A DNA stretch of 52,527 nucleotides from positions 1-52,527 of the forward strand of contig DATKVL010000107.1 in NCBI GenBank assembly GCA_035530115.1, given 5' to 3'. The DNA comes from Dehalococcoidia bacterium. Lineage in GTDB: Bacteria > Chloroflexota > Dehalococcoidia > GIF9 > AB-539-J10. This document shows, piece after piece, positions 1 through 52,527 of the stretch (its first letter is position 1; the number at the start of each line of letters is the position of its first letter). The position numbers and the translations under genes were made by a program. The notes beneath the pieces were generated by a model. It saw only the letters and a program-made list of their open reading frames with translations. It was not told where the DNA came from and searched no databases.

Positions 1-141
1 AATCAAGAAAAGAGGACGTGATACTATGTCAAGGACAGTGAAAATCGAAGATTGTAAGAAGGTAAACTGCTGGGCATTGAGAGAACTAAAATGGGGTGTT
101 CTTTGCATCGCTAAAGAATGCATACACCCAGAGGCTCATAC
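1..141. repeat. Terminal direct repeat copy 1 (exact copy of 52387..52527)
   Basis: Positions 1-141 (aatcaagaaaagaggacgtg...cccagaggctcatac) recur base-for-base as the last 141 nt of the window. Confidence 0.97.
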
Positions 142-181
142 GTCAGAGGAATCCATTAAGAACGGTGGCGATAGGACATGA
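26..181 (+). CDS. Small hypothetical protein (51 aa); its RBS and 5' end lie in the terminal repeat, so the gene bridges the genome junction
   Basis: ATG at 26 preceded by aagaggacg RBS; MSRTVKIEDCKKVNCWALRELKWGVLCIAKECIHPEAH...; stop TGA 179-181 overlaps the next ATG (ATGA). Below the ORF-track length cutoff. Confidence 0.5.
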   Translation: MSRTVKIEDCKKVNCWALRELKWGVLCIAKECIHPEAHTSEESIKNGGDRT

Positions 182-891
182 CACTCAATAAAGCTAAAGG
201 ACGCATGTTCAAGTCCGTGGGCTGGACATGGAACCCAATATGGGGCTGCACTCACGATTGTAAATACTGCTGGGCTAGGGCACTCACTGAGAGATGGGGA
301 AAAGAGTTTCACCCACAGTTCCGAGAAAAATTCCTAGAAGACCCAATGCCAAACGATGAATCCTGGATATTCGTCGGAAGCATGGGTGATGTGTTCTGTG
401 ATGAAGTACCCGACTCTTGGCTATACCAACTAATACTAACCATACTTAGAGACAATTCAAACAACAAGTTCCTACTACAATCCAAGAACCCCCGTCGCTT
501 CCTTGATAAAGATCTTGACCTAGATGCAGTGAAGGAAAAGGTGATTCTAGGTACCACCATTGAGACAAATAGATTAACCCCTTGGACAAAGGCCCCAAGT
601 ACACATGAAAGAGCCTATTGTCTCTCACAGATGAAGCTAAACGGATTCAAAACTTTTCTCAGTTTGGAGCCACTTTCAGACTTCGACTTTGGGGAACTTG
701 CTTCATGGATCATGTCGATACAGCCAGAGGCCATAGAAATAGGTCTAGAGAACTACACAAGCCACACCACAAGACCCACAGATGAAAAAATCTGTCAATT
801 AACAAATTGGCTGGATAAAACATGGTTCGAGTACATTCTAAAAGAAAACGTAGAGTCCATTTGCTGCGCCGAACTAAGGAGGCCCGAATAA
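178..891 (+). CDS. Phage Gp37/Gp68 (DUF5131) family protein with CxxxCxxC motif
   Basis: WTWNPIWGCTHDCKYCWA, IFVGSMGDVF and FLLQSKNPRRF match my recollection of the PF07505/DUF5131 signature. Confidence 0.8.
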   Translation: MTLNKAKGRMFKSVGWTWNPIWGCTHDCKYCWARALTERWGKEFHPQFREKFLEDPMPNDESWIFVGSMGDVFCDEVPDSWLYQLILTILRDNSNNKFLLQSKNPRRFLDKDLDLDAVKEKVILGTTIETNRLTPWTKAPSTHERAYCLSQMKLNGFKTFLSLEPLSDFDFGELASWIMSIQPEAIEIGLENYTSHTTRPTDEKICQLTNWLDKTWFEYILKENVESICCAELRRPE

Positions 892-1523
892 TGAAGTTTG
901 CACAGCCTAAAAACGCGAATTATTATGACCTTGTGAGAACCCCTCACGGTCATATCCCTGCCCCGATGATCAAGTTCTGGTCTTGGCTTCCCATTCCCAT
1001 CAAGGGACAGAGAGATTGGGGAACCTTCCACTGCCCTGTATGTGGTTCACCGAGTTTCTTCAAAACCGGGTATGGCTGTGATGAATGCCAATACGACAAC
1101 GAACAGAAGTGGAAAACCTATCATAATCGAGAGAAAAAGCGTAGGAAGTGGAAACGCCTAGAATATGCAATGCTGCCTCTCCTAGTCTTGATAGGTAAAG
1201 CCTGGTATCTTCCCTCCATCAAATTAACCCTATTCGAACAAAGAGAAAAATACGGCGGCGAGTTCCTATGGGAGCCAGATCCAGAGGAAGTTTACACAGA
1301 CTCAAATTGTGCCATCTGCGGCGACCCAATAACATGGGCCGATGAGATACAAGCCCCAGATCACCCTCAATGCTGCGAAGAACATGGCGACTACCTTGAA
1401 CTCTGCGTTGATTGTTACGAGTATTGGGAAAACCAATCAGACCACAAAGGCTGCATAAGGGCATTCTTCAACAAAAACATTCAGCCCATCGAATACGCTG
1501 AACTCAGGAGGGACACCGAATAA
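891..1523 (+). CDS. Cys-rich (multi CxxC) hypothetical protein
   Basis: In-frame ATG at 891 overlaps previous stop (TAATG) with AGGAGG 8 nt upstream; CPVCG, CDEC, CAICG, CVDC motifs. Track ORF 822..1523 starts inside the upstream gene. Confidence 0.6.
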   Translation: MKFAQPKNANYYDLVRTPHGHIPAPMIKFWSWLPIPIKGQRDWGTFHCPVCGSPSFFKTGYGCDECQYDNEQKWKTYHNREKKRRKWKRLEYAMLPLLVLIGKAWYLPSIKLTLFEQREKYGGEFLWEPDPEEVYTDSNCAICGDPITWADEIQAPDHPQCCEEHGDYLELCVDCYEYWENQSDHKGCIRAFFNKNIQPIEYAELRRDTE

Positions 1524-2032
1524 TCTTCTCAGAGGGCGACCACATAGAGCAGATCAAGGCGGGAACCAAGACACAGACGCGGCGGATCTCAGACAGATAC
1601 GAGGTAGGTAAGCTCTACGCGGTTCAGCCATGCCGAACCTGCAAGGGCATCCCAAACGGTAGAATCTTGATAACCGCTAAACGCCTAGAGGTAAAGATAG
1701 GGCGGCCTCAATGGTGGATGATACTACCAGATGAGGCGGAGGCTGAGGGCGGCTACTCTTCACACGAATATGAGGAACTTTACGAGAAAATGCACCCAGG
1801 CTGGATAGAACGGTGGGCCTACCTTTTTCAGTATTACCCAACTGAGGCAATCGAATTGATAGAAGACGGTGAACTCGATGAGGCCATGACAGTCATGATG
1901 TCCATAGCATCCCAGCAACTTAGGAAAACCAGTGTTTTAAGAAGCGAGTCTGCGGAGCATCCCGACACTGGAGAAGCAGACACACAACCCGTCCCCGCCT
2001 CAAGCGGAAGGGAAAAAGAGGAAAAAACATGA
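1523..2032 (+). CDS. ASCH-domain-like protein; N-terminal half has no canonical start codon (ATC at the TAATG-equivalent position)
   Basis: Frame is open from 1502; IFSEGDHIEQIKAGTKTQTRR...ILPDEAEAEGGYS resembles ASCH; the first ATG/GTG/TTG in frame is TTG 1667 (track ORF 1667..2032), which would delete the conserved N-terminus. Confidence 0.45.
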   Translation: MFSEGDHIEQIKAGTKTQTRRISDRYEVGKLYAVQPCRTCKGIPNGRILITAKRLEVKIGRPQWWMILPDEAEAEGGYSSHEYEELYEKMHPGWIERWAYLFQYYPTEAIELIEDGELDEAMTVMMSIASQQLRKTSVLRSESAEHPDTGEADTQPVPASSGREKEEKT

Positions 2033-2373
2033 ACATGAAAAAAGTAGAACCGCCTAGAAACGAAGTGCTGCTAAAAATATACGACCATGAGAGCCTAGAC
2101 GAAGAATACGAAAACAAGACCAGCATAGAACTTCTTGAGATAATCGACAAGGCACAACTGGCGAAGGAAGGCGAAAAAGTAGACTGGAAGCCAGTCAATA
2201 AGGCAGAGAACGTCTTAATATATCGCCTATCTGGAAACCTTGTAACTGCTTTAAACACCGATTTACGAGAGGAACTAATACGCATAATCGCTAGACAAAA
2301 CGAACTCATAGAAGCATTCCGTAACCATCGCCACGACAAAGACAAGAGCTACACAGAGAAGCCAATCTGGTGA
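2029..2373 (+). CDS. Hypothetical protein
   Basis: ORF track 114 aa; ATGA overlap with upstream stop; tight same-strand packing. Confidence 0.6.
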   Translation: MNMKKVEPPRNEVLLKIYDHESLDEEYENKTSIELLEIIDKAQLAKEGEKVDWKPVNKAENVLIYRLSGNLVTALNTDLREELIRIIARQNELIEAFRNHRHDKDKSYTEKPIW

Positions 2374-2377
2374 TACT

Positions 2378-2623
2378 ATGAACCCCCAATATTTTTTTTG
2401 TACTAACTGCGGTAAAATCCATGAAATATGGAAGAATGATCTACATCATGAACAGTGGGGACTAATCATGCTCTATATAGCTGAAAACACCCCCACCAGC
2501 CTTGAAATCGCCGAAAAGTTTGGGATCCACCGAAGATCAGCCCAATATTATCTTAAAGAGTTCAAAGAGTTGGCTGCGAGCGTGATCAAATCCGTCAACT
2601 CTAAAGGAGAACGAACACAATGA
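2378..2623 (+). CDS. Putative HTH DNA-binding protein with N-terminal CxxC
   Basis: CTNCGK... then TSLEIAEKFGIHRRSAQYYLKEF looks like a helix-turn-helix. Confidence 0.55.
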   Translation: MNPQYFFCTNCGKIHEIWKNDLHHEQWGLIMLYIAENTPTSLEIAEKFGIHRRSAQYYLKEFKELAASVIKSVNSKGERTQ

Positions 2624-2895
2624 AATGTTCAATAGAATACTGTGATCACCCAGAATATGCCGAGGGCGTATGCCTATGGCATTACCCTCTATGGGAAACT
2701 TGGGGATATTCTGGTGGTTATGAGATTTACCAAACTAGAGGACAAGAAGAAGGCAGAAAACAGTTCAAGAAATGGTTAATGCAACAAAGGCACCAGAACA
2801 TAATCGACATTTTCACAGAATATGATTGGAATCTAACTCAGGCAGTCAACGAATCAATGGATTCAGATATTAAGAGGACGATGAAAAATGAGTAA
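2620..2895 (+). CDS. Hypothetical Cys/His-containing protein
   Basis: ORF track 91 aa; ATGA overlap with upstream stop. Confidence 0.55.
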   Translation: MKCSIEYCDHPEYAEGVCLWHYPLWETWGYSGGYEIYQTRGQEEGRKQFKKWLMQQRHQNIIDIFTEYDWNLTQAVNESMDSDIKRTMKNE

Positions 2896-3067
2896 AATGG
2901 ATATTCATAAAATAATCCGTTGGTGGGAAAACGAATTAACAGGCAAAGATCGGACTCGATTGATGGGTTCTTATAAGTGGCATGGAACTGTCCAAGAACG
3001 TCATCAAAAAATTAGAGAAATACATGACTCCGCTAAATCAGATAGTAAGAGGATAGAAATAAAATGA
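2888..3067 (+). CDS. Small hypothetical protein (59 aa)
   Basis: ATG 2888 preceded by aagaggacg; read manually: MSKMDIHKIIRWWENELTGKDRTRL...; stop overlaps next ATG. Confidence 0.4.
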   Translation: MSKMDIHKIIRWWENELTGKDRTRLMGSYKWHGTVQERHQKIREIHDSAKSDSKRIEIK

Positions 3068-3204
3068 CTGATACTGATGGTAAGAAATATCCAGAATGCC
3101 AACCTTCAATGCTTTGTAAATACTGTGATTACGATTTTGAATGTGGGGACATTATGATGGCTGAAAGGACATCCTTAGAGAAACACAGGAAGAGGTCGAT
3201 TTAG
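3064..3204 (+). CDS. Small Cys-rich hypothetical protein (46 aa)
   Basis: ATG 3064 preceded by aagaggata; MTDTDGKKYPECQPSMLCKYCDYDFECGD... Confidence 0.4.
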   Translation: MTDTDGKKYPECQPSMLCKYCDYDFECGDIMMAERTSLEKHRKRSI

Positions 3205-3205
3205 C

Positions 3206-3397
3206 TTGTCAAGAACTATCATAAAAGATGATGATTGGGGGCTATGTCCTGCTGCTAGAGAAGATCCGCTTGGCTGTCCATATGGTGGGGGTTCAAGGTC
3301 TAACTGTACCGATTGTCAAGATTTACCTATATGGTATTTTGATAAAAATAATAGTTCAGAGGAAACCGTAGACGAAACCAAAAAGAGGACGCCCTAA
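3206..3397 (+). CDS. Hypothetical Cys-rich protein
   Basis: ORF track 63 aa, TTG start; C-terminus KKRTP encodes the RBS of the next gene. Confidence 0.5.
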   Translation: MSRTIIKDDDWGLCPAAREDPLGCPYGGGSRSNCTDCQDLPIWYFDKNNSSEETVDETKKRTP

Positions 3398-3738
3398 TGC
3401 CAGCACATTTTGTCTTGAAAAGATATTTAGAAGGGTTTGAGAAGTATGGCGATCTATATGAAGCCATCAAATCAGGTAAAAAGACAGTTGAATATCGTGA
3501 TGCTTCAGATCACTGGTGGAATCGACTTATCGAGAAGAGATCTAGATTACTTGGTCAATTCTACAAAGGAAGAAACATAGTATTTCAAGGCAATCAACTG
3601 AAACACGATAAAGCCGTGTTTGTCGTAGGATACACCAAGTACCCTCGATTAGTAGCCGATGTCACCAAGATCGTTTATCTCTACGATTCAAACCAACTAG
3701 AAACTCACATCACAAACGTAACGGAGGAACTTGGGTAA
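3397..3738 (+). CDS. ASCH-domain-like protein
   Basis: EAIKSGKKTVEYRD...VFVVGYTKYPRLVADVTKI resembles the ASCH/PUA-like G-x-K-T-x-E-x-R pattern. Confidence 0.65.
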   Translation: MPAHFVLKRYLEGFEKYGDLYEAIKSGKKTVEYRDASDHWWNRLIEKRSRLLGQFYKGRNIVFQGNQLKHDKAVFVVGYTKYPRLVADVTKIVYLYDSNQLETHITNVTEELG

Positions 3739-3923
3739 TGCCCCCACTGAAATGTAAATTTACTGAACTTGAATGCACAAAAAACCATGATTGTGATAAT
3801 TGCATCGTTTTCTGGTACGGATACTACAGAGATACTGGGGAAATAGAAAGCAAAGTGAACCCATCCATTAGCTCCCAGCAACTCGGGACCAGAGAATCTA
3901 AAGGAGAAAGGACCGATGCCTAA
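3738..3923 (+). CDS. Small Cys-rich hypothetical protein
   Basis: ORF track 61 aa; TAATG overlap; CKFTELECTKNHDCDNC. Confidence 0.55.
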   Translation: MPPLKCKFTELECTKNHDCDNCIVFWYGYYRDTGEIESKVNPSISSQQLGTRESKGERTDA

Positions 3924-4137
3924 GCTTCCATGCCCTAAATATCCAGAGAAATGTAAAACGGCTCAAAGATGTGGTGTTGACATCGCATCTGGGGCTTGCA
4001 CCTATGACCCTAATATTAAGGGCATGTATAAGAAATGCTGCGTCACAGAAAATACCGAACCACCCGTCATATTGATCAGCTACTCAAAAGAATCCATTTA
4101 CTCCCAGCAATTACGGTCCAAGGAGATGGAAAAATGA
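3916..4137 (+). CDS. Small Cys-rich hypothetical protein
   Basis: ORF track 73 aa; shares a ctcccagcaa-containing 3' segment with the preceding gene. Confidence 0.55.
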   Translation: MPKLPCPKYPEKCKTAQRCGVDIASGACTYDPNIKGMYKKCCVTENTEPPVILISYSKESIYSQQLRSKEMEK

Positions 4138-4487
4138 AAACACGCGAATACAATTTGGAGACCATAGACGACGAAACAGGCGAATACGTCAAATCAGTAA
4201 CTACAGAGACAGACACCATACGCTTCTATCTAGGTCCATTCGGTGAATGGTTCACACCATGCGAAGAGGACCAAGAGAAACTGAAGAAACTACTTGAGAA
4301 GGCTGACCCGCTTTATGTTCTTAAAGAAGCGAATAAGTCAATCAAGTTAGAACGCCACTGGCTAAAAGATGATCATGGATGGAAAGAAATAGAACGCAGA
4401 CAACCAACAATCGACGACTTCAAACGAATCTACGGCTCAGATTGGCAGAAAGTCTATTCTGCATGGCAGGAGGATGACCCCAACTGA
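4134..4487 (+). CDS. Hypothetical protein
   Basis: In-frame ATG 4134 (ATGA overlap, ggagatgg RBS) inside track ORF 4035..4487; MKTREYNLETIDDETGEY... Confidence 0.6.
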   Translation: MKTREYNLETIDDETGEYVKSVTTETDTIRFYLGPFGEWFTPCEEDQEKLKKLLEKADPLYVLKEANKSIKLERHWLKDDHGWKEIERRQPTIDDFKRIYGSDWQKVYSAWQEDDPN

Positions 4488-4576
4488 GCCTTTTTTCCTC
4501 AGACTCAATAAGCGGCATTCAATGGCTTGACCGAGCCGTAGAAAACTTTGATCAAGTATGGCCGATACTAAACAAA

Positions 4577-4858
4577 ATGACGCCCATATCAGATGACCTT
4601 CTATTTGATTTAGCCTTCAAGGAACATTGGAGGCTTCTACAGAACAATTACCCCGACTTTCTATACGGTAAACGAGTGGCGACAACAAAGGAACTTGTGA
4701 ATAAACATTCAAGAGGAAGCAGCTTAATTAGAGCCGCTGGAACAGCTAAAATCCTTGACACCATGCAAGAAGGCGAGACATTGTTTTACTGTGGTGTTGA
4801 GATCACAAAGAGAAACGGCTCCATTATCTCTAAAGAACTTAGGAGAGTGGAAAAATGA
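4577..4858 (+). CDS. Hypothetical protein
   Basis: ORF track 93 aa; follows a T-rich stretch (gccttttttcc) after 4487. Confidence 0.55.
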   Translation: MTPISDDLLFDLAFKEHWRLLQNNYPDFLYGKRVATTKELVNKHSRGSSLIRAAGTAKILDTMQEGETLFYCGVEITKRNGSIISKELRRVEK

Positions 4859-5031
4859 GTCTTAAAGAAGAAGCAAAAACCGTGTTAAACATTCTAATTG
4901 ATGGAATATATCAGCGTCACGGCTCCCAGCCCTATGAAACATTACCAGAACTTGTTGAAGTCTTAGATGAGATAAGAGAGGAGAGACACCAAACACACTA
5001 TAAAATTAAGATGGAGTTCAAAGAAGAATGA
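4855..5031 (+). CDS. Small hypothetical protein (58 aa)
   Basis: ATGA overlap at 4855, aggagagtgg RBS; MSLKEEAKTVLNILIDGIYQRHG... Confidence 0.4.
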   Translation: MSLKEEAKTVLNILIDGIYQRHGSQPYETLPELVEVLDEIREERHQTHYKIKMEFKEE

Positions 5032-5062
5032 CCAGTAACTCAGATACTAAGAGGACGGTGGA

Positions 5063-5506
5063 ATGATGGGGATTAAAGTTAGACATATTGCAGTAGACTT
5101 TGATGGAGTAATATGTCATTATGATGGACACTATGATCCATATAAATTCGGGGAGCCTAATGAAAGCGTAAGGTATTTGCTTGAAGGAATAAAGAAACTT
5201 GGCTATGAAATAGTAATATTCACATGTAGAACTAATGGGCAATGGGAGAATCACGACTACAAGAAAATCAAGGTAGCAATAAAGGAATACCTTGAACATT
5301 ATAATATGCCCTTTGATAAAATCGCCACCCAGATGGATGGAAAGGTATTCGCTACTGCATACATTGATGATAAAGCTATTACTTGGCCTCAGAATCATGT
5401 TTCCCATATTTACGCTAATGAGATATTAACTCAACTCGCTAACTTAGAACCATTAATTCTTGATACATCCATTATCAAACACACTAAACGGATGGAGGTA
5501 GAATGA
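5063..5506 (+). CDS. HAD-superfamily phosphatase / nucleotidase-like protein
   Basis: DFDGV (DxDx[TV] motif I), FTCRT (motif II), YIDDK (motif IV). Confidence 0.75.
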   Translation: MMGIKVRHIAVDFDGVICHYDGHYDPYKFGEPNESVRYLLEGIKKLGYEIVIFTCRTNGQWENHDYKKIKVAIKEYLEHYNMPFDKIATQMDGKVFATAYIDDKAITWPQNHVSHIYANEILTQLANLEPLILDTSIIKHTKRMEVE

Positions 5507-5757
5507 TGAGTAAGCACAGCTACCAAGAAGGCGTGGTTCTCTGCACGGTTGAGGGCAAACGCAGGGCAGTTCATATCAAGATAAACGCCAATAACTTGGT
5601 GGTCTGCCCTGAATGGAAGAAATGCCCGAATCATGGGAAGCCTGACTGTCAGGAAAAACAGATTCATAACGAAATCATAGAGAGAATAAAGAAGAGAAGA
5701 GCCAAAAAGACTTCGCCGAACATCGATGTACTTATGAGGTATTTACTTTCAAGGTGA
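5503..5757 (+). CDS. Hypothetical protein
   Basis: ORF track 84 aa; ATGA overlap. Confidence 0.55.
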   Translation: MMSKHSYQEGVVLCTVEGKRRAVHIKINANNLVVCPEWKKCPNHGKPDCQEKQIHNEIIERIKKRRAKKTSPNIDVLMRYLLSR

Positions 5758-5802
5758 AAAATGAAATGACCCAAGTCGAAACCAAAAAGAGGACATAGAA
5801 AA

Positions 5803-6006
5803 ATGGATAGAGTGTATGATCAATCGAATATAAGGCCCCAAGGTATTCCTGAAGATTCTACTCGGTGTATTGCTGAGGTGGTAGATGAAACTGGCTGGCA
5901 TTTCTATCAATGTAAAAGGAAAAGAGGGTATGGTCCTAACGGTGAATATTGTAAACAACATGCCAAGATAATTGAATCCAGAAGAAAGCAAACAAAGAGG
6001 ACATAA
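5803..6006 (+). CDS. Hypothetical protein
   Basis: ORF track 67 aa; aagaggaca RBS upstream; C-terminus QTKRT encodes next RBS. Confidence 0.55.
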   Translation: MDRVYDQSNIRPQGIPEDSTRCIAEVVDETGWHFYQCKRKRGYGPNGEYCKQHAKIIESRRKQTKRT

Positions 6007-6008
6007 AA

Positions 6009-6623
6009 ATGGAGAAACCAGATGCTACAATAGTTGACTTCACGGCCGGGAACCGTAGTATCTGGACCCTTAAAGATAGCCCACACATACTCTTCTTAGA
6101 TAAAGAACCCGATCTCTCATTGCCCCCTGACCTTCTCTGCGATGCCACTAATACCGATCTCCCCCCAGATTCCAAGTTCTTCGCTGTGTTTGATCCACCA
6201 CATGAATGGGGCAAAAGAAAAAATAGCAGCCTCTTCACCACACCAAACCGAGAAACATGGAACAAGAAATGGCCCTCTCATAGCAGAGAAGCACCGCCGG
6301 TCTATTATGGAGCAGATAAGTACCAAACAAAAACCGAGTTAATGCGATTCATCTACGAAACCCAAAGGGAAATCGCACGAGTCCTAATACCTGGCGGGAT
6401 TCTATTCTTTAAGTGGAGTGAAAACAGCCTAAGCACAAACGAGGTTCTTGAATATCTCCCTCTCTGGGATGTTGCCCTAAGAATCCCCGTAGGATATGCT
6501 GGTAAAACAGCCAAACAATCATACTGGCTTCTAATGATCCAAAAACAAGGGCCATGGCCACAAACAGAGTTATTGGATTTCTTCAAATCCACTAATAGCA
6601 AATCAAAGAGGATAGAGACATGA
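6009..6623 (+). CDS. DNA methyltransferase (N6-adenine/N4-cytosine type, DPPH motif)
   Basis: VDFTAGNRS (motif I-like) followed by FAVFDPPHEW (motif IV DPP[YFWH]) and IPGGILFFKW. Confidence 0.7.
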   Translation: MEKPDATIVDFTAGNRSIWTLKDSPHILFLDKEPDLSLPPDLLCDATNTDLPPDSKFFAVFDPPHEWGKRKNSSLFTTPNRETWNKKWPSHSREAPPVYYGADKYQTKTELMRFIYETQREIARVLIPGGILFFKWSENSLSTNEVLEYLPLWDVALRIPVGYAGKTAKQSYWLLMIQKQGPWPQTELLDFFKSTNSKSKRIET

Positions 6624-6832: not shown

Positions 6833-6833
6833 G

Positions 6834-7058: not shown

Positions 7059-7061
7059 GAT

Positions 7062-7190: not shown

Positions 7191-7191
7191 G

Positions 7192-44657: not shown

Positions 44658-44658
44658 G

Positions 44659-47537: not shown

Positions 47538-47571
47538 TCTGTAGGAGAGAACCAAAGGAGGAACACCAGAA

Positions 47572-47886
47572 ATGACTACAAACATGCAATCGACTAGCCT
47601 GGAGGTCTTCTTCGGGGAGGTGCTTCCTAGTCTCAGTGAGAGACAGGGACAAGTCCTCGACATATTCCTAGAGAACCCGATACTTGATTTCACAAACATG
47701 GAGCTCGCCGAGGAGTTGGGGTGGAGCATCAACCGAGTTACGCCCAGAGTCTACGAACTACGTGGCGAAGGCAAACACAATCCTCTCAAACATAATCCGG
47801 TGCTCATAGAGAGCCGCCGACGCGAATGCCTGGTTACAGGACGAAAAGCCATCGCCTGGGCTTTCAACCCAGATAGGGGGAGATAA
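47572..47886 (+). CDS. Winged-helix DNA-binding protein
   Basis: LSERQGQVLDIFLENPILDFTNMELAEELGWSINRVTPRVYELRGEG. Confidence 0.6.
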   Translation: MTTNMQSTSLEVFFGEVLPSLSERQGQVLDIFLENPILDFTNMELAEELGWSINRVTPRVYELRGEGKHNPLKHNPVLIESRRRECLVTGRKAIAWAFNPDRGR

Positions 47887-47887
47887 T

Positions 47888-48085
47888 GTGCAATCTCGGC
47901 CTTACAATAATAATCACAGGTGTCCTGACTGCGGTGAATGGCTAAAGAGGGAAACCCCGAACGGAAGGTATAACTGCAATAACCCGACGTGCCCTGTGAT
48001 CTATGTGAGGTTCTCACGTGTGGCGCCTCAGTACAAGATCACGAGGATAAACAGGGCCGCCGTGCTCGACATGACGTTTAAATGA
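47888..48085 (+). CDS. Zn-ribbon protein
   Basis: ORF track 65 aa (GTG); CPDCGEWL...YNCNNPTCP. Confidence 0.55.
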   Translation: MQSRPYNNNHRCPDCGEWLKRETPNGRYNCNNPTCPVIYVRFSRVAPQYKITRINRAAVLDMTFK

Positions 48086-48099
48086 CCCAAGACCTTGGT

Positions 48100-48126
48100 C
48101 CCGCCCGGAGTTTGACGATGGGCGGG
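48100..48126 (+). terminator. Hairpin CCCGCCC-N13-GGGCGGG after the last gene of the GC-rich block
   Basis: 7-bp perfect stem read directly; no adjacent T-run, so its function is uncertain. Confidence 0.3.
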
Positions 48127-48187
48127 TATGACTTTCTAAGACCAAATAGGTATGGGTAACTGGTGAAATGTTGTTCGGTGAAATTGA

Positions 48188-48250
48188 CGAGGGGCAGGCA
48201 TAGATGTGACAGGCCACCGGCTCAGCGGAGTCTACAACAAAGTCAAATAA
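48188..48250 (+). pseudogene. 3' remnant of a paralog of the 8461..8781 membrane-protein gene
   Basis: ggggcaggcatagatgtgacaggccaccggctcagcgg versus ggagcaggcgtagatgtcgcaggccaccgcctcagtgg (8671..); RGAGIDVTGHRLSGVYNKVK* versus TGAGVDVAGHRLSGAINQL; in-frame TGA immediately upstream. Confidence 0.65.
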
Positions 48251-48313
48251 GGCTTATATGCCCCTTTTTAAATACAAAACCTTAATAACGATAAAACCTA
48301 GAATATAATTACA

Positions 48314-48454
48314 ATGACAAAAAGACAAATAGCCATTGAAGATGAAACATGGATGTCACTAAACCAGTTAAAGGAACCCGGAGACACATTTGACGAAGTT
48401 ATCAAAAAACTGCTAACCTTCTGGTGGAAGAAAAACGAGGAGGGAGAGCCATGA
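48314..48454 (+). CDS. Small RHH/antitoxin-like protein (46 aa)
   Basis: MTKRQIAIEDETWMSLNQLKEPGDTFDEVIKKLLTFWW parallels the N-terminus of the 13111 RHH protein; the antisense track ORF 48298..48573 is rejected. Confidence 0.5.
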   Translation: MTKRQIAIEDETWMSLNQLKEPGDTFDEVIKKLLTFWWKKNEEGEP

Positions 48455-48561
48455 AAGAATTTCCCCGGAAAGAACTTCCCCAAGAATTTCTGATAGAGGC
48501 AACTAGACTCCTGCGACAGATCAATGAGGAGAGGAGGAAAAATGAGCGAATACAATCGTAA
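48451..48561 (+). CDS. Small hypothetical protein (36 aa)
   Basis: ATGA overlap; MKEFPRKELPQEFLIEATRLLRQINEERRKNERIQS. Confidence 0.3.
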   Translation: MKEFPRKELPQEFLIEATRLLRQINEERRKNERIQS

Positions 48562-49408
48562 GGAGTCTACCAAGATCGTGGGTGAGTTATACCCGGTTCT
48601 TGTGGCTAAGGATGGTCAGGTGATTGACGGTTTTCACAGGTTGGAGGATAATCCTGACTGGAAGACTGAGACGCTTGAACACATCGACTCTGAGGAGAAG
48701 CTGTTGTTGGCTAGGGCTATATCGAACTGGCATAGACGAGAGATTCCAAGAACGGAAAAGGAAAAATGGATTAACGGGCTGGCAAAAATCTACCAAAAAC
48801 AAGGACTAAAGATCAAAGGTAGTTTTCCTTTCAAAAACGAAATAGTCGAGAAGCTTGTGGAAGTAACAGCGTTAACACAACAGACTGTAAACAAGTACCT
48901 TGTCTACGAGTTTAAACAACCAGAAAAAGAATCACTTGCGCAAAAAAAGAAACCTACGATTCCCGCTTCTCAGCGGATTGAAACCGCACTTGGCTCAGAC
49001 TATGTTGAACGCCATGAAACCGAGGTCCTAGAGAAAGCATTGAAAGACCCTGACTTCATCGTGAAGGCAATCGAGAAAGCACCTGAGGTACTGTCACCCA
49101 AACGAGTAACTGTAGTGGATCGGCAGGGCTACCATAAGCCAACCATCGAGAGGACCGCGAAGAGAGAGGTAAGAGAGCGGGCCAAGGAAACCGAGGAAGA
49201 GCGTGAAACCTTCAAAGCTTCGCCTGCGATGAGAGACAAGTCACGGCTACTTAAGGCATGGCGATCACTAAGCGTCATACTAGCCTCATCAAAGGATTTG
49301 GTATGCCCCATCTGCGGCGGAGAAGCTGAGGCTATCCTAAGATGCCAAAAATGTGGTGAGATCCCATTATCAGAAGCACAGAGAATAGCACAGGAGGCGG
49401 TACAATGA
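48542..49408 (+). CDS. ParB-like nuclease-domain protein with a C-terminal Zn ribbon
   Basis: ATG 48542 after gaggagga; LVAKDGQVIDGFHRL (ParB N-terminal DG-x-HR motif); C-terminal CPICGGEAEAILRCQKCGE. Confidence 0.7.
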   Translation: MSEYNRKESTKIVGELYPVLVAKDGQVIDGFHRLEDNPDWKTETLEHIDSEEKLLLARAISNWHRREIPRTEKEKWINGLAKIYQKQGLKIKGSFPFKNEIVEKLVEVTALTQQTVNKYLVYEFKQPEKESLAQKKKPTIPASQRIETALGSDYVERHETEVLEKALKDPDFIVKAIEKAPEVLSPKRVTVVDRQGYHKPTIERTAKREVRERAKETEEERETFKASPAMRDKSRLLKAWRSLSVILASSKDLVCPICGGEAEAILRCQKCGEIPLSEAQRIAQEAVQ

Positions 49409-50235
49409 GCTACCTTGAAGCCCTAAACAAAAGGATTCCATCATACCCCTCTATCATCCCAAGAGAGTTTAACTTCATACGCGCCCTAGAACACATCCCA
49501 GACATCATGCCAAAGGCTAAAATAGTCGGAGCCACCGCAATAGCAAGCTCATCCGAGGAAATGAAACGAAGAACGGTTAAAACTGGAACAGACATCGTTT
49601 CAACCGTCAACAGAAACATGTTCAAACCCGACATAGAAGAACCGGGAACCGATTCACCCCTTGATATAGCTATTACTGGAAAAGAACTTGTTGAACAAGC
49701 CACCGAACACAACCCAGATGTCAACACCTGGACAGTAAAATCATTAGCCCTCGTCACGAAGCCTCTCATATCACATGAAAACTTTGACACATTGGATAGC
49801 ATAGTGAGAACCCTTAACGCACATAAGACCCTCGGAAGGAGCGCGGGGTTTACAGGCGTAATGAACCCCTACTACGAAACAAGACACCTGCTACAACAAA
49901 TGGGGCTATGGAGTAAAAAGGTAAGGGCCTCATATCGACCAAGATCAGTCTTGAAAACACATAAAATAATCGGTAAAACAGATGAAAGGTTTAACATAGG
50001 TTACGACACCCTTTTCTCCGAAACCTCTATTGCACAAAAATATTTCACCGAAGCTACAAGAAAAAACTCTAGGTTACTTGACGTAGGCATCCCAGAGCCA
50101 ATAATAAACCAAACCAATGGAGAACAGCTATTAGGTGAAACAGGCGCCATTGTATTCGCCCTAATGAAAAACAGTCAACGAATCGCAGCAGTTCTAGGAC
50201 CAGACATCCCCATCTACACATTTTCAAGGGAATAA
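49405..50235 (+). CDS. Hypothetical protein
   Basis: ORF track 276 aa, ATGA overlap. Confidence 0.6.
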   Translation: MSYLEALNKRIPSYPSIIPREFNFIRALEHIPDIMPKAKIVGATAIASSSEEMKRRTVKTGTDIVSTVNRNMFKPDIEEPGTDSPLDIAITGKELVEQATEHNPDVNTWTVKSLALVTKPLISHENFDTLDSIVRTLNAHKTLGRSAGFTGVMNPYYETRHLLQQMGLWSKKVRASYRPRSVLKTHKIIGKTDERFNIGYDTLFSETSIAQKYFTEATRKNSRLLDVGIPEPIINQTNGEQLLGETGAIVFALMKNSQRIAAVLGPDIPIYTFSRE

Positions 50236-50259
50236 CACCCCCCTCTTTTTTCTAAAGTT

Positions 50260-50313
50260 GACGGTAGGGGGTGGTGACGAAACGACCAAGATAAAGGTAG
50301 TTACCCCTCCGTC
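50260..50313 (+). other. Imperfect hairpin (GACGGtAGGGG ... CCCCTCCGTC) containing a TATA-less copy of GTGGTGACGAAACG
   Basis: Stem arms at 50260..50270 and 50304..50313; the GTGGTGACGAAACG copy at 50271..50284 opens only a 7-codon ORF. Confidence 0.4.
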
Positions 50314-50372
50314 AGTACCTATCTGGGTTAGGAGTATAAAGAGATTTCACCTCAAAACAGATCACCCAAAGT

Positions 50373-50415
50373 TTTATATATTTATTACCCGTACTTCACT
50401 GTGGTGACGAAGACG
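50373..50415 (+). promoter_or_regulatory. Motif A copy 3 (tttatatatttattacccgtacttcactgtggtgacgaagacg)
   Basis: About 35/42 identity plus 1 indel to copies 1 and 2; TATA ~27 nt upstream of GTG 50401. Confidence 0.65.
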
Positions 50416-50607
50416 GCTAACCAGAAATACCCCTCCTGTATCGGCGAGATGTACGAGCTGGGCGAGAAGTACATGGCCTCCAACTGCATGGGTTGCAGGG
50501 CCTTCAACGACTGCAGCGGGATAGGCGGCGGAGTCGAGACCACTAAGGCGAGCGTCCTGATCCCTGAGGAGCCCTCCACATGGGGCGAGATCCATTCGAG
50601 GTGGTGA
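50401..50607 (+). CDS. Small Cys-rich hypothetical protein
   Basis: ORF track 68 aa, GTG start within motif A; the antisense ORFs here are rejected. Confidence 0.55.
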   Translation: MVTKTANQKYPSCIGEMYELGEKYMASNCMGCRAFNDCSGIGGGVETTKASVLIPEEPSTWGEIHSRW

Positions 50608-50658
50608 AGATGGCTAAACTTAACTTGGTTGTCATCATACATAAAGTAGTCAAAGAAG

Positions 50659-50862
50659 ATGAAAACGAAAATGAAGGAAAAAGTGAAAGGCAAGTTCTAC
50701 GGTGACGACCCCCAAACACTACAGATAATCGGGGACCGCATCAGAAACGAGTTTGCCCCCGGCTGTAGCGTAAGCACACCGCTACCCACCGAAAAGGGCG
50801 ACTATCATATCCTGGTGAGCATCTTCACCACGACCCAAAACACATCTGAAAGGAGGACATGA
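50659..50862 (+). CDS. Hypothetical protein
   Basis: ORF track 67 aa; C-terminus SERRT encodes the next RBS. Confidence 0.5.
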   Translation: MKTKMKEKVKGKFYGDDPQTLQIIGDRIRNEFAPGCSVSTPLPTEKGDYHILVSIFTTTQNTSERRT

Positions 50863-50866
50863 GAAG

Positions 50867-51058
50867 ATGGAAAAAATATCCCGCTTTAAGGAAGATCTAC
50901 TAAAGGAAAAACTATGGATAGAATTAGGGAAACCACATCTCCCCTGCGATGATTACCATAATTGTTTAAACTGCATCCGAAAACCAAAATGCCCCATTGA
51001 AATTGAGTGGAAAAAACGTCAATCCATTAACACCCATGAAAGGAGGACAACAGAATGA
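50867..51058 (+). CDS. Small Cys-rich hypothetical protein
   Basis: ORF track 63 aa; aggaggaca RBS. Confidence 0.55.
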   Translation: MEKISRFKEDLLKEKLWIELGKPHLPCDDYHNCLNCIRKPKCPIEIEWKKRQSINTHERRTTE

Positions 51059-51474
51059 ACCTACGTTGTTTGCTAGGCTTCCACGCCTGGTTCTACTATG
51101 ATGAGTTCGGTACATTTGATTGTGATCGCCGCATCTGTCGAAGGTGCGGAAAAATAGAGAGCACATACTTGAACCCAGCCATGTTTAGCATAGATGTATA
51201 TGAGCCATGCGGGTTTGCCTCAAAAGAACAGAAATCACAGATCTTAGACCCGAAATACCAGATCAAAAAATATCAAGCGGCCCTAGATGAACTTATCGAG
51301 AAAAATAAGGAAAGACAACAATTTGAAAAACTATACCCAAACACTACACCAGAATTAACACGAAGTTCCTCAGAGTTGAATTTTCTGGAACGAAAAATAA
51401 TGGCAGATTACAACCAGAAAATCACCGAATTATCCATTGTTACCCATGCCAAGAGGACGGAGGAAACACAATGA
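51055..51474 (+). CDS. Hypothetical protein (N-terminal CxxC pair)
   Basis: ORF track 139 aa; ATGA overlap. Confidence 0.55.
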   Translation: MNLRCLLGFHAWFYYDEFGTFDCDRRICRRCGKIESTYLNPAMFSIDVYEPCGFASKEQKSQILDPKYQIKKYQAALDELIEKNKERQQFEKLYPNTTPELTRSSSELNFLERKIMADYNQKITELSIVTHAKRTEETQ

Positions 51475-51689
51475 AAAAACCCTTTTCGATACTGGATCTA
51501 GTCTGCGACGAGGAAGGAAACCTCGTCAAGACAGAGATTCATGAATACATTAAGAACTTAGAAGGAATAATCCAGAAGGTCAAGATCTGGTTAAATGGTC
51601 TAGGTTACTCAATGAGCCCTGAAACCTTCATCGAGAAGCGATACGAACTTGAATGCATCCTCGAAGGTAGGGAGTACGATCCAGAATGA
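51471..51689 (+). CDS. Hypothetical protein
   Basis: ORF track 72 aa; ATGA overlap. Confidence 0.55.
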   Translation: MKKPFSILDLVCDEEGNLVKTEIHEYIKNLEGIIQKVKIWLNGLGYSMSPETFIEKRYELECILEGREYDPE

Positions 51690-51726
51690 CCATTAACCCC
51701 AACGCCAAGAGGACGGATGGAGAACA

Positions 51727-52047
51727 ATGAGTCTAAAAGAAAAAATATTATCTGAAATGGTATTCCCCAATGAAATAATAGATCAAGCTAGAGAGACATT
51801 CAAAGCACTCCCATCAGAGAAAAAATCCGTACTACGATATGAGTACATAGTTGAGAGACTTGAAAGACAACGCCTATGGAATCTGGTTGCAGAACTCAAG
51901 AAAACTATCCTTGAATGTGACAATAATTACGATCATGATAACATGGACGAAATGGACGCCTTAGAACACTTCCAGAAATACCATGAGATACTGATGTCCA
52001 TTATCTCCACTCCAGAGAATAAACAGGAGGTAAAGATCGTTGGATGA
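51727..52047 (+). CDS. Hypothetical protein
   Basis: ORF track 106 aa; aagaggacgg RBS. Confidence 0.55.
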   Translation: MSLKEKILSEMVFPNEIIDQARETFKALPSEKKSVLRYEYIVERLERQRLWNLVAELKKTILECDNNYDHDNMDEMDALEHFQKYHEILMSIISTPENKQEVKIVG

Positions 52048-52213
52048 AGATATACCTAAAGTCTGCTATTACTGCGGAGATCCACTCGACTATGTGCCGA
52101 GTTGCCCTAACCAGTTAGATGAGGATCGTCCTCTGATAAAGTGGGTCTGCCGAGCCTGTTGGATGGAAAGACATGTTGACAAATCCATTAGATACACGGG
52201 GGTAAGGACATAA
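52040..52213 (+). CDS. Small Zn-finger protein (57 aa)
   Basis: TTG 52040; LDEDIPKVCYYCGDPLDYVPSCPNQLDEDRPLIKWVCRACW...; stop overlaps next ATG (TAATG). Confidence 0.45.
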   Translation: MDEDIPKVCYYCGDPLDYVPSCPNQLDEDRPLIKWVCRACWMERHVDKSIRYTGVRT

Positions 52214-52407
52214 TGGTGGCTACCTGTGACTTTTGTGACAACCCAGCATATAATACAATAACTATGTTCGGGGTAAAACGACTAAGACAACCAGGCGTCC
52301 TTCTTTGTAGAGAACATGATGAGGAATTTCAAGAAAAACTCGTTAAGCTAGTTAATGGTTACTTGGAGAAACGTAAATCCATTAAGAATCAAGAAAAGAG
52401 GACGTGA
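52213..52407 (+). CDS. Small Cys-containing hypothetical protein
   Basis: ORF track 64 aa; its C-terminus NQEKRT lies in the terminal repeat and encodes the RBS of the junction gene. Confidence 0.55.
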   Translation: MVATCDFCDNPAYNTITMFGVKRLRQPGVLLCREHDEEFQEKLVKLVNGYLEKRKSIKNQEKRT

Positions 52408-52527
52408 TACTATGTCAAGGACAGTGAAAATCGAAGATTGTAAGAAGGTAAACTGCTGGGCATTGAGAGAACTAAAATGGGGTGTTCTTTGCATCGCTAA
52501 AGAATGCATACACCCAGAGGCTCATAC
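52387..52527. repeat. Terminal direct repeat copy 2 (exact copy of 1..141)
   Basis: Same 141 nt as the window start; unique genome length 52,386 bp. Confidence 0.97.

What the first reader, a model, noticed from the sequence alone, without database searches (positions are those of the whole stretch)
1..52527. Strongly bimodal base composition: a GC-rich backbone with an AT-rich early block and at least four AT-rich islands
By eye and by spot counts, the late and replication genes (about 8.4-24.0, 25.9-29.1, 30.9-38.6 and 39.3-48.2 kb) are GC-rich, with 36/60 G+C at 18601-18660. The early block (48.25 kb through the junction to 8.2 kb) is AT-rich, as are islands at ~13.33-14.04, ~24.03-25.90, ~29.10-30.87 and ~38.59-39.29 kb (15/60 at 29221-29280; 17/60 at 2881-2940). 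The two compartments also use different RBS flavours: AAGAGGAC in the early block and GGTGAT/GGAGGT in the backbone. This pattern suggests modular recombination between viral lineages, or hosts, of different GC content.
Basis: seen in the sequence. Interest (0 to 1): 0.6.

Follow-up and report, generated by a model that had tools for sequence, protein, structure and literature searches.

The report
GC-mosaic genome of an uncultivated virus
This complete 52.4-kb tailed-virus genome really is a patchwork of a conserved GC-rich core and AT-rich add-on pieces (a 12-kb block of small genes, two homing-endonuclease genes, sugar-modifying genes, a swapped tail-protein domain), which is the familiar mosaic way such viruses evolve and not an assembly error.

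Summary

The contig is not a chimera. It carries a 141-bp terminal overlap, and the same 52,386-bp circle was assembled at 99.97-100% identity in at least 10 samples by three pipelines, crossing every boundary.

Relatives (TerL 82-86% aa) keep the GC-rich core but lack nearly every AT-rich piece:
- the 1-kb island at 13.06-14.06 kb
- the NUMOD3/Vsr-like endonuclease cassette at 29064-29842
- the HNH endonuclease gene at 30163-30861
- the whole ~12.5-kb small-gene block, where the relative G1 has 1.6 kb between the same anchor genes.

Genes unique to one lineage have lower GC3 in all three larger genomes. Homologues of two AT-rich modules sit in AT-rich contigs elsewhere. The tail-protein island is an exchangeable domain cassette.

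The RBS claim is half right. AAGAGGAC is specific to the block; GGAGG/GGTGA is not specific to the backbone.

The virus is probably archaeal and mis-binned into a Dehalococcoidales MAG.

This is a new member of a known kind (lambda-type segmental GC, morons, homing endonucleases), of modest interest. This scan has seen similar compositional islands in other phages.

The parts
1..141 (.). Assembly overlap. It is identical to 52387-52527, so the unique circle is 52,386 bp.
   Evidence: Exact 141-nt terminal direct repeat. Other assemblies give rotated 52,527-bp contigs (MEGAHIT k141) and 52,513-bp contigs (JGI; 52,386+127).
48233..52527 (+). First part of the AT-rich small-gene block (GC 0.44/0.41). 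It opens with TATA-like boxes near 48267 and a conserved gene pair 48524-49408 / 49405-50235. It contains a GC-rich blip at 50388-50614 (ORF 50401-50607 behind a TATA box at 50373).
   Evidence: HMM. No block gene is shared with relatives G1, G2 or G3. The gene pair has 63-78% aa homologues on 42-47% GC contigs with unrelated neighbours.
1..8483 (+). Second part of the same block, continuous through the circular junction. It holds about 25 small + strand ORFs (DUF5131 protein 178-891; the rest unknown) and has GC-rich blips at 1253-2012 and 7913-8136. It ends at the TATA-like box at 8430, before ORF 8461.
   Evidence: In G1 the anchor homologues of 47572-47886 and 8461-8781 are 1.6 kb apart, against about 13 kb here.
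13058..14063 (+). Island 1, a moron-like 1-kb insertion. It has a TATA-like box at 13083, ORF 13111-13329 (GC 0.54), and AT-rich ORFs 13340-13660 and 13657-14037 (GC 0.37/0.41). No family matches.
   Evidence: In G1 and G2 the homologues of 12755-13057 and 14064-14405 are adjacent or overlapping. HMM segment 13309-14093. No Pfam or PHROG hit.
24009..25882 (+). Island 2: a GT2 glycosyltransferase (23991/24009-24770) plus a tandem double methyltransferase (24788-25882), GC 0.42/0.39, inside the capsid-proximal glycosylation cluster.
   Evidence: Pfam. No orthologue in G1 or G2. 62-70% aa homologues occur as an AT-rich GT2-MTase fusion next to a GC-richer epimerase on a 44% GC contig, L198; L199 also carries a homologue.
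29064..29842 (+). Island 3a, a homing-endonuclease cassette. It carries an AT-recoded copy of the last 33 nt of structural gene 28602-29096, followed by the NUMOD3 + Vsr/DUF559-type endonuclease ORF (29114-29875). That ORF ends in the original 3' end of the structural gene (29843-29875).
   Evidence: Pfam and PHROG. 27/33 nt duplicate, EITFQVNHVS vs EITFQVNHIS. The distal copy keeps the codons seen in relative L200 (ACG TTC ... AAC). The cassette is absent in G1, G2 and L200.
29892..30173 (+). Conserved backbone gene (93 aa, GC3 0.64) lying between the two endonuclease insertions.
   Evidence: Homologues in G1, G2 and L200 (47-64% aa).
30163..30861 (+). Island 3b: a free-standing HNH endonuclease gene (232 aa, GC 0.33, the most AT-rich gene).
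   Evidence: PHROG 4234/2255 HNH endonuclease. Weak hit to a Streptomyces phage HNH/EndoVII. Absent in G1, G2 and L200, where the flanking homologues abut.
38612..39241 (+). Island 4: an in-frame AT-rich middle-domain cassette (aa ~421-630) of the 895-aa tail protein, ORF 37352-40039. GC3 is 0.38 against 0.75-0.77 in the flanks.
   Evidence: The segment is homologous to the same segment in five relatives. It is AT-rich in L139 and L140 but not in G1, L196 or L197. Discordant identities (L140-L196 71% in the N-part vs 41% in the cassette; G1-L196 44% vs 73%) show the domain is exchanged.
44443..44774 (.). AT-rich (0.36), mostly non-coding control region ahead of the replication genes (44659-45282 and MCM helicase 45282-47537). 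It runs about 115 nt into the first of these ORFs. It contains TATA-like boxes (44476, 44618) and AT-rich inverted repeats. Candidate promoter or origin, not an import.
   Evidence: HMM; sequence and repeats; MCM domains.
8484..13308 (+). GC-rich backbone (0.56): small ORFs, large terminase 9490-10911, putative portal 11251-12567.
   Evidence: Homologues in G1, G2 and G3.
14094..24023 (+). GC-rich backbone (0.57): head genes, major capsid protein 18083-19273, MTase-GT1 fusion 19346-21412, further glycosyltransferases.
   Evidence: 69-85% aa homologues in G1.
26061..29059 (+). GC-rich backbone (0.53): epimerase 25903-26859 (its first ~150 nt are still AT-rich), GT 26876-27880, head-tail adaptor 27931-28602, gene 28602-29096.
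30970..38627 (+). GC-rich backbone (0.57): tail completion protein, tape measure 32010-34373, tail proteins.
39189..48232 (+). GC-rich backbone (0.54-0.55), except 44443-44774: C-terminal part of the tail protein, regulators (wHTH 43885-44193), MCM helicase module.

Best explanation
The window is the complete, circularly assembled genome (52,386 bp) of an uncultivated tailed virus, probably of an archaeon.

Its composition is bimodal because it is a mosaic. The core covers packaging, head, tail, regulators and the MCM replication module, at about 53-57% GC and GC3 about 0.67. Most of it is shared with relatives; the MCM module itself is not. Into this core, lineage-specific modules of about 37-44% GC (GC3 about 0.41) have been inserted or swapped at gene and domain boundaries.

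The AT-rich modules are of the kinds known to move between viruses:
(a) a ~12.5-kb hyperplastic block of about 40 small genes between the replication and packaging modules
(b) two free-standing homing-endonuclease genes
(c) a promoter-bearing moron-like insert in the head module
(d) two glycan-modifying genes inside a variable glycosylation cluster
(e) an in-frame middle-domain cassette of a tail protein.

They come from, and are exchanged with, a pool of AT-richer mobile DNA present in the same habitats, and they have not been homogenised to the core's composition.

One extra AT-rich stretch (44443-44774) is simply control DNA upstream of the replication genes, mostly non-coding.

Shown here: the steps, the continuity of the assembly, presence/absence against relatives, cassette discordance among homologues, and AT-rich contexts of homologues. 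Inferred: the direction of transfer, the donor identity, the timing, and the 'early' expression of the block.
For: Steps and bimodality.

Not an artefact: the 141-bp overlap. In addition, 99.97-100% identical contigs from ENA MEGAHIT (five samples, different rotations), JGI (52,513 bp, two samples) and Logan contigs together cross every boundary and the junction.

Insertions against relatives G1, G2 and L200 (TerL 82-86% aa): island 1, the endonuclease cassette, the HNH gene and the whole block are absent between conserved neighbours.

Endonuclease insertion scar: a 33-nt duplicated, AT-recoded gene end. The distal copy keeps the relative's codons.

Shared vs lineage-specific genes, GC3: 0.646 vs 0.485 (p=1.7e-6) here, 0.662 vs 0.588 in G1 (p=0.004) and 0.672 vs 0.581 in G2 (p=0.007). 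The relatives carry their own AT segments at other positions, 14-15% of their length.

Signature: the block and the islands resemble each other (delta*=34) and differ from the backbone (84-88; within-backbone 21-39). CpG rho is 0.73/0.81 vs 0.99. All three codon positions and the non-coding DNA shift (0.405 vs 0.515).

AT-rich homes of homologues: the gene pair 48524-50235 on 42-47% GC contigs; GT2/MTase on a 44% GC contig.

Tail cassette exchange.

Composition does not follow function class. The MCM and regulator genes are GC-rich, while a structural domain and the glycan enzymes are AT-rich.
Against: No donor sequence closer than 78% aa (block pair) or 46% (tail cassette) was found, so transfer into this lineage is inferred from absence in relatives and from context.

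For the window's own tail cassette there is no discordance signal. It is about as divergent from every homologue as its flanks are.

The same cassettes are AT-rich in homologues of only 37-46% (tail) and 57-70% (GT2/MTase) aa identity, next to GC-richer neighbours. That is as well explained by long-term maintenance of low GC as by repeated import.

Several lineage-specific genes are GC-rich (MCM, the 825-aa tail protein and others).

All identical assemblies appear to come from a single project.
Confidence: 0.75

Rival explanations
1. In-situ divergence, not import. The whole genome shares one history. Core and late genes are held at high GC3 by translational selection, or by recombination-linked bias, because they are highly expressed and conserved. 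Weakly selected accessory genes drift to low GC under the universal GC-to-AT mutation bias.
For: The lower GC3 of lineage-specific genes is family-wide. All AT compartments share one signature. The same domains or genes are AT-rich in distant homologues. Structural genes of lambda and many other phages show elevated GC3 and codon adaptation (PMC2266997).
Against: Steps coincide with insertion boundaries defined by relatives, and with a duplication scar. Non-structural genes (MCM, regulators) are GC-rich, while part of a structural tail protein is AT-rich. Non-coding DNA follows the compartment. Homologues of AT modules sit in wholly AT-rich contigs. An in-frame 0.38-vs-0.76 GC3 step inside one ORF is hard to produce by expression level.
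Confidence: 0.15
2. Function-driven AT-richness. The block and islands are kept AT-rich because the DNA or RNA itself needs it. Possible reasons are easy melting and dense promoters for first-expressed genes, binding of a silencing or regulatory protein, or slow translation through rare codons to fold a tail-protein domain.
For: The 44443-44774 segment is clearly of this kind: mostly non-coding, with TATA-like boxes and AT-rich inverted repeats. A junction element is confined to the block. The AT-rich state of the tail middle domain recurs in 3 of 6 homologues.
Against: TATA-like boxes are rare inside the block: none lies between 50.66 kb and 8.16 kb, apart from one inside a gene. Three of six homologues have a GC-normal middle domain, so low GC is not required for that fold. 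Homing-endonuclease genes and a moron-like insert have no obvious need for AT-rich DNA. Junctions show no stable RNA structure.
Confidence: 0.07
3. Assembly chimera joining fragments of a GC-rich and an AT-rich genome.
For: It is a metagenomic contig in a contaminated bin (7% contamination, 529 contigs). The bin also holds a 41% GC phage contig.
Against: The same circle was recovered at 99.97-100% identity by three assemblers in at least 10 samples, with different rotation points. One boundary pair lies inside an intact 895-aa ORF whose homologues are collinear. Genes overlap or abut across boundaries. No similarity to the 41% GC contig was found.
Confidence: 0.01

Closest known systems
Segmental GC distribution of coliphage lambda (GC-rich structural left arm, AT-richer central b region and right arm) and non-random GC3 landscapes of phages (Lucks et al. 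2008, PMC2266997)
   Same: A GC3-rich block of packaging, head and tail genes stands against AT-richer non-structural or accessory DNA. The steps are far beyond random expectation. Recombination between phages of different composition is the standard candidate explanation.
   Different: Here replication and regulatory genes belong to the GC-rich compartment. The AT-rich DNA is one 12.5-kb block plus small islands defined by presence/absence against relatives. The virus is probably archaeal and the host is unknown, so codon adaptation cannot be scored.
Morons and low-GC regions of genomic plasticity in lambdoid and Mu-like phages (Hendrix/Juhala concept; Cazares et al. 2014, PMC4378225)
   Same: Extra DNA sits between genes that are adjacent in relatives, with deviating, lower GC (64% vs 46% in the Mu-like phages). 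Island 1 even has its own promoter-like box.
   Different: No terminator was identified. No lysogeny context is known. The functions of the two AT-rich ORFs are unknown.
Free-standing homing-endonuclease genes of phages (for example the seg and mob genes of T4-type phages; HNH and NUMOD3-containing families)
   Same: Endonuclease ORFs are inserted between, or into the end of, conserved genes. They are patchily present among relatives and AT-rich relative to the flanks. One has a duplicated, recoded copy of the interrupted gene end.
   Different: The nuclease fold of the first gene is Vsr/DUF559-like with NUMOD3 repeats, not GIY-YIG or classic HNH. Cleavage and homing are untested.
Tail-fibre / receptor-binding-protein domain mosaicism in tailed phages
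   Same: There is in-frame exchange of a middle domain between homologous genes, with conserved flanks and discordant identities among homologues.
   Different: The exchanged cassette exists in AT-rich and GC-normal versions in GC-rich backbones. Receptor-binding function is not shown.
Hyperplastic regions with PeSL (promoter-early stem-loop) cassettes in T4-type phages
   Same: An array of many small, lineage-specific genes is joined by a short repeated junction sequence.
   Different: The junction element here (TCCATTA-N11-AAGAGGAC-N5-12-ATG) has no promoter-like box and no stable stem-loop. It looks like a Shine-Dalgarno region with conserved flanks.

Membership tests
Moron (Hendrix/Juhala sense): island 1, 13058-14063 | Extra DNA between two genes that are adjacent in related phages | tested here: met
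   Homologues of 12755-13057 and 14064-14405 abut in G1 and G2.
Moron (Hendrix/Juhala sense): island 1, 13058-14063 | Own promoter and terminator | tested here: inconclusive
   A TATA-like box at 13083 lies 28 nt before ATG 13111. No terminator was looked for or seen. Promoter activity is untested.
Moron (Hendrix/Juhala sense): island 1, 13058-14063 | Nucleotide composition different from the neighbours | tested here: met
   GC 0.37-0.41 vs 0.51-0.52 in the flanking 300 bp.
Free-standing homing-endonuclease genes (29114-29875; 30163-30861) | Recognisable homing-type nuclease and DNA-binding domains | tested here: met
   NUMOD3 x4 plus Vsr/DUF559/MTES_1575. PHROG homing endonuclease and HNH endonuclease families.
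Free-standing homing-endonuclease genes (29114-29875; 30163-30861) | Sporadic presence at a locus that is uninterrupted in close relatives | tested here: met
   Both are absent in G1, G2 and L200, which have conserved neighbours. A related AT-rich endonuclease sits at a different locus in G1.
Free-standing homing-endonuclease genes (29114-29875; 30163-30861) | Cleavage of the endonuclease-free allele and gene conversion | not testable with these tools
   Needs enzyme assays or co-infection crosses. Only the 33-nt recoded duplication is seen.
Tail-protein domain cassette exchange (38612-39241) | In-frame homologous segment whose relationships disagree with those of the flanks | tested here: met
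   Met among homologues only (L140-L196 71% vs 41%; G1-L196 44% vs 73%). For the window's own copy the only signal is the GC3 step (0.38 vs 0.76).
PeSL-type cassette arrays of T4-like hyperplastic regions (block 50.85-6.6 kb) | Each small gene flanked by an early promoter plus stem-loop repeat | tested here: not met
   The junction repeat has no TATA-like box. Eight junctions fold no better than shuffles, with z from -0.6 to +0.9 and one at -2.0.
Archaeal tailed viruses (host domain of this virus) | Hallmark genes closest to those of archaeal viruses; archaeal-type promoters | tested here: met
   All 19 MCM matches among 50,697 phage/virus records are archaeal viruses. The best TerL match is Methanobacterium psiM2, 40.8%. 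Five TATA-like boxes lie 27-31 nt before start codons. No host link such as a CRISPR spacer or provirus was found.
Chimeric contig | Junctions not reproduced in independent assemblies | tested here: not met
   Every boundary is reproduced at 99.97-100% identity by three pipelines. Reads were not available.

The most novel reading that the evidence does not exclude
The low GC of the exchangeable modules is not a transient mark of recent import. It is a maintained property of a cassette pool shared by these (probably archaeal) viruses. The same tail domain and the same glycan genes stay AT-rich next to GC-rich neighbours in homologues that are only 40-77% identical. The small-gene block uses a dedicated ~26-nt junction element (TCCATTA-N11-AAGAGGAC). 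The element is found in both coding and non-coding junctions, and it could serve as a common translation and recombination linker for cassette shuffling. That would be an archaeal-virus analogue of the T4 PeSL system.
Probability: 0.12. Interest if true: 0.6.

Novelty: new member of a known kind. Interest (0 to 1): 0.3.

Why it matters
The finding gives a clean, well-delimited example of how a tailed virus, probably archaeal, is assembled from a conserved core plus mobile AT-rich modules. It includes base-pair-level insertion boundaries for a homing-endonuclease cassette and a demonstrably exchangeable tail-protein domain.

It has three practical uses:
- It flags which ~17 kb of this genome is flexible cargo, where host-takeover, anti-defence and host-range functions are most likely to be found.
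- It warns that composition-based binning put this virus into a bacterial MAG.
- It shows that GC steps in viral contigs need not mean chimeras.

It does not reveal a new kind of mechanism.

Tried and rejected
I replaced it with exact-protein look-ups of independent assemblies.
- Megablast of core and block against 50,697 phage records: no match.
- Pattern searches of IMG/VR for relatives of block proteins 48524-49408 and 6009-6623 and of the tail cassette: nothing.
- Scan of IMG/VR for the junction element TCCATTA-N11-AAGAGGAC: 49 single hits, which I judge (not computed) to be about the chance level, and no multi-copy carrier. AAGAGGAC is not enriched in relatives.
- Paralogy among block proteins as the source of the shared C-terminal SIxxxxKRT tails: rejected, since there is no significant all-against-all similarity. 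The element also occurs in non-coding junctions.
- The co-binned 41% GC phage contig C109 as donor of the AT-rich DNA: no protein or DNA similarity, and its signature is distant (delta* 104-122).
- The Dehalococcoidales MAG as host: no capsid homologue in 400 genomes of the class; same-genus genomes are 1.3-1.7 Mb against 2.47 Mb for this bin; no spacer-like matches. The only link is a 70% identical wHTH gene on contig C476, itself a mobile-element-like contig.
- Proviruses with a related terminase in GTDB species genomes: none.
- tRNAs: none.
- Stable RNA hairpins at junctions: none.

Full report
**What the window is.** The window is one whole contig (C107) of a 2.47-Mb, 529-contig MAG. Its first and last 141 bases are identical, so the unique sequence is a 52,386-bp circle at 50.7% GC. 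All convincing genes lie on the + strand. From 8.4 kb onward the gene order is:
- large terminase 9490-10911, putative portal, head genes, major capsid protein 18083-19273
- an ~8.5-kb glycosylation/methylation cluster, connector genes
- tape measure 32010-34373, tail proteins including an 895-aa protein (37352-40039), small regulators
- an MCM helicase (45282-47537)
- about 40 small ORFs running through the junction to 8.2 kb.

**Observation.**
- GC in 300-bp windows has SD 0.076, against 0.029 for a homogeneous sequence.
- A two-component mixture (0.429 and 0.558) beats one component on BIC.
- A two-state HMM returns AT segments 48233-50387, 50615-1252, 2013-7912, 8137-8483, 13309-14093, 24024-26060, 29060-30969 and 38628-39188.
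- It adds one more segment, 44443-44774.

The difference is largest at third codon positions (0.408 vs 0.672). It is also present at first and second positions and in non-coding DNA (0.405 vs 0.515). The AT-rich block and the islands share a dinucleotide signature (delta* 34) that differs from the backbone (84-88, against 21-39 within the backbone). The main contrast is CpG depletion, 0.73/0.81 vs 0.99.

The RBS remark is half right. AAGAGGAC-like motifs precede 13/33 block genes and 1/49 others (p=1.3e-5). Canonical GGAGG/GGTGA cores are equally frequent in both compartments.

**Not a chimera.** As a substitute I used exact-protein look-ups. These found the same genome in many independent assemblies:
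- 52,527-bp MEGAHIT contigs from five ENA samples, with different rotation points
- 52,513-bp JGI contigs from two samples (52,386 + 127)
- 1-11-kb Logan and JGI contigs.

All are 99.97-100% identical to the window, and together they span every GC boundary and the 52527/1 junction. One boundary pair lies inside an intact ORF whose homologues are collinear.

**Relatives.** IMG/VR holds relatives with 82-86% identical large terminase. I fetched three of them: G1 (52.4 kb), G2 (40 kb) and G3 (19 kb). They share the GC-rich core at 45-85% aa identity. Against them:
- (i) The homologues of 12755-13057 and 14064-14405 abut in G1 and G2, so 13058-14063 is a 1-kb insertion here. It starts with a TATA-like box 28 nt before ATG 13111.
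- (ii) G2 has homologues of 28602-29096, 29892-30173 and 30880-31437 back to back. G1 and L200 have only an unrelated 81-aa ORF at the first junction. So the 29.1-30.9 kb 'island' is two insertions. One is a NUMOD3 + Vsr/DUF559-type endonuclease and the other an HNH endonuclease.
- (iii) The first insertion has a scar. The last 33 nt of the structural gene (29064-29096) are repeated at the end of the endonuclease ORF (29843-29875): 27/33 identical, peptides EITFQVNHVS and EITFQVNHIS. The distal copy keeps the codons seen in relative L200 (ACG TTC ... AAC). The proximal copy is AT-shifted (ACT TTT ... AAT). The cassette 29064-29842 therefore arrived with its own recoded gene end. The HMM boundary (29060) falls exactly there.
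- (iv) In G1 the homologues of 47572-47886 and 8461-8781 are 1.6 kb apart. Here they are about 13 kb apart. None of the block's ~33 called genes has a homologue in G1, G2 or G3.
- (v) G1 also lacks the MCM module. That module is GC-rich here, so not all variable DNA is AT-rich.

Across the three larger genomes, lineage-specific genes have lower GC3 than shared genes: 0.485 vs 0.646, p=1.7e-6; 0.588 vs 0.662, p=0.004; 0.581 vs 0.672, p=0.007. G1 and G2 carry their own AT segments at other positions, 14-15% of their length against 33% here.

**Where homologues of the AT-rich genes live.**
- The gene pair 48524-49408 / 49405-50235 has 63-78% identical homologues on five short contigs. These contigs are 42-47% GC and their neighbours are unrelated and also AT-rich. 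Two of them come from the same metagenomes that yielded the GC-rich relatives.
- The GT2 and double-methyltransferase genes of island 2 have 62-70% identical homologues on a 44% GC contig (L198), where they form an AT-rich GT2-MTase fusion. That fusion sits next to a GC-richer, 77% identical epimerase and further AT-rich glycan genes.
- A second contig (L199) has the methyltransferase and the epimerase in swapped order.

**The tail-protein island.** Residues ~421-630 have GC3 0.38, against 0.75-0.77 in the flanks. The segment aligns with the same segment of five homologues.
- It is AT-rich in L139 (0.36) and L140 (0.34).
- It is not AT-rich in G1 (0.54), L196 (0.61) or L197 (0.81).
- L140 and L196 are 71% identical in the N-terminal part but 41% in this segment.
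- G1 and L196 are 44% and 73% identical respectively.

So this domain is exchanged as a cassette. L140 has a second AT-rich segment near its C-terminus. For the window's own copy, the GC3 step is the only sign of exchange.

**The fifth AT-rich segment.** 44443-44774 is mainly the 203-bp intergenic gap 44456-44658 ahead of the replication genes, and it runs about 115 nt into ORF 44659-45282. It contains TATA-like boxes and AT-rich inverted repeats. I read it as a promoter or origin region, not imported DNA.

**Host.** The MAG's RpoB is bacterial and closest to Dehalococcoidales. The virus, however, looks archaeal:
- All 19 MCM matches among 50,697 phage/virus records are archaeal viruses.
- The best terminase match is Methanobacterium phage psiM2.
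- Five TATA-like boxes lie 27-31 nt before start codons, as expected for leaderless archaeal transcripts.
- No capsid homologue occurs in 400 Dehalococcoidia genomes, and same-genus genomes are 1.3-1.7 Mb.

I take the bin assignment to be an error (about 0.8). Which compartment is 'host-like' therefore cannot be judged.

**Interpretation.** The best-supported reading is ordinary viral mosaicism. The GC-rich core is largely conserved. AT-rich modules of the mobile kinds were inserted at gene or domain boundaries and exchanged with an AT-richer pool. These modules are homing endonucleases, a moron-like unit, glycan-cluster genes, a tail-domain cassette and a hyperplastic small-gene block.

This is the situation described for lambda's GC3 halves and for morons (PMC2266997), and for low-GC plasticity regions of Mu-like phages (PMC4378225). 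Earlier notes of this scan list comparable islands in other phages.

The main rival is in-situ divergence under different selection. It is weakened by the insertion boundaries, the scar, the GC-rich non-structural genes and the compartment-following non-coding DNA. It is not excluded, because the same cassettes are AT-rich in quite distant homologues.

**Junction element (side observation bearing on the RBS claim).** About 12 gene junctions between 50.85 and 6.6 kb share aa(T)TCCATTA-N11-AAGAGGAC-N5-12-ATG with fixed 11-nt spacing.
- Where the upstream ORF reads through the element, it ends in S-I-x4-K-R-T.
- In three junctions (5049, 5787, 51707) the element is non-coding.
- The proteins are not paralogues.

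So the conservation is at the nucleic-acid level. The element has no TATA-like box and no stable fold, and it was not found as a multi-copy element in IMG/VR.

**Verdict.** This is a new member of a known kind, of modest interest.

Noticed in passing
about 12 junctions between window 50851 and 6613, e.g. 52378-52403 (= 52378-17 through the junction), 5034-5056, 5995-6002, 6588-6613, 51023-51048, 51433-51458, 51689-51714: There is a repeated junction element aa(T)TCCATTA-N11-AAGAGGAC-N5-12-ATG with fixed spacing. It is confined to the AT-rich block and always on the + strand. When translated it gives unrelated small proteins a common C-terminal S-I-x4-K-R-T tail. Three copies are non-coding. 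It shows no stable RNA fold and was not seen as a multi-copy element in IMG/VR. It may be a translation-coupling or regulator-binding site, or a recombination linker.
   Followed up: partly
whole window; MAG contig C46 (L032): The virus is probably archaeal: MCM homologues occur only in archaeal viruses, the best terminase match is Methanobacterium psiM2, and TATA-like boxes lie 27-31 nt before start codons. It sits in a Dehalococcoidales (bacterial) bin that is about 0.8 Mb larger than same-genus genomes. This is a likely binning error.
   Followed up: partly
window 29064-29096 and 29843-29875: The endonuclease cassette carries an AT-recoded duplicate of the last 33 nt of the interrupted structural gene. 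The endonuclease ORF terminates in the original gene end, whose codons match relative L200.
   Followed up: yes
window 40075-40116, 41439-41480, 50373-50415; also 8430, 13083, 44618, 48267: TATA-like boxes (C/TTTATATA) lie 27-31 nt upstream of GTG/ATG starts. Three of them are embedded in a conserved ~42-nt element (TTATATAtTGTTACCCGTAC...GTGGTGA). This suggests leaderless archaeal-type transcription units. No such box lies between 50.66 and 8.16 kb except one inside a gene.
   Followed up: partly
window 44443-44774: An AT-rich (36% GC) region, mostly non-coding, with inverted repeats (ATTTATTTATATC / GATAAAAATAAAT; a 19-nt hairpin at 44717-44755). It lies directly upstream of the 207-aa protein and MCM helicase genes and is a candidate replication origin or promoter.
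   Followed up: partly
window 43885-44193; MAG contig C476:16055-16378: The winged-helix regulator has a 70% identical homologue, with 89% nt identity over 90 nt, on another contig of the bin. That contig looks like a mobile element: ParA-like ATPase, DNA methyltransferase, DUF5131-like protein.
   Followed up: partly
L198:1186-2637 versus window 23991-25882: The GT2 and the first methyltransferase domain are separate genes here but one fused 483-aa protein in a 62-70% identical homologue. The neighbouring epimerase is 77% identical, and it is GC-richer than its neighbours in both the window and L198.
   Followed up: partly
window 44476-48088 (contigs L129, L130 from JGI 3300030714/3300030717, and several Logan SRR85545xx contigs): Several short independent contigs cover only the replication unit and end within a few bases of the stop codon at 48085. 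They may be transcript assemblies (metatranscriptomes) that delimit an operon. The library type could not be checked.
   Followed up: no
L140:~3500-4000 (homologue of window residues 743-857 of ORF 37352-40039): One homologue of the tail protein has a second AT-rich segment (GC3 0.20-0.35) in its C-terminal part, where the window's copy is GC-rich. This is further evidence of segment-wise mosaicism in this gene family.
   Followed up: partly
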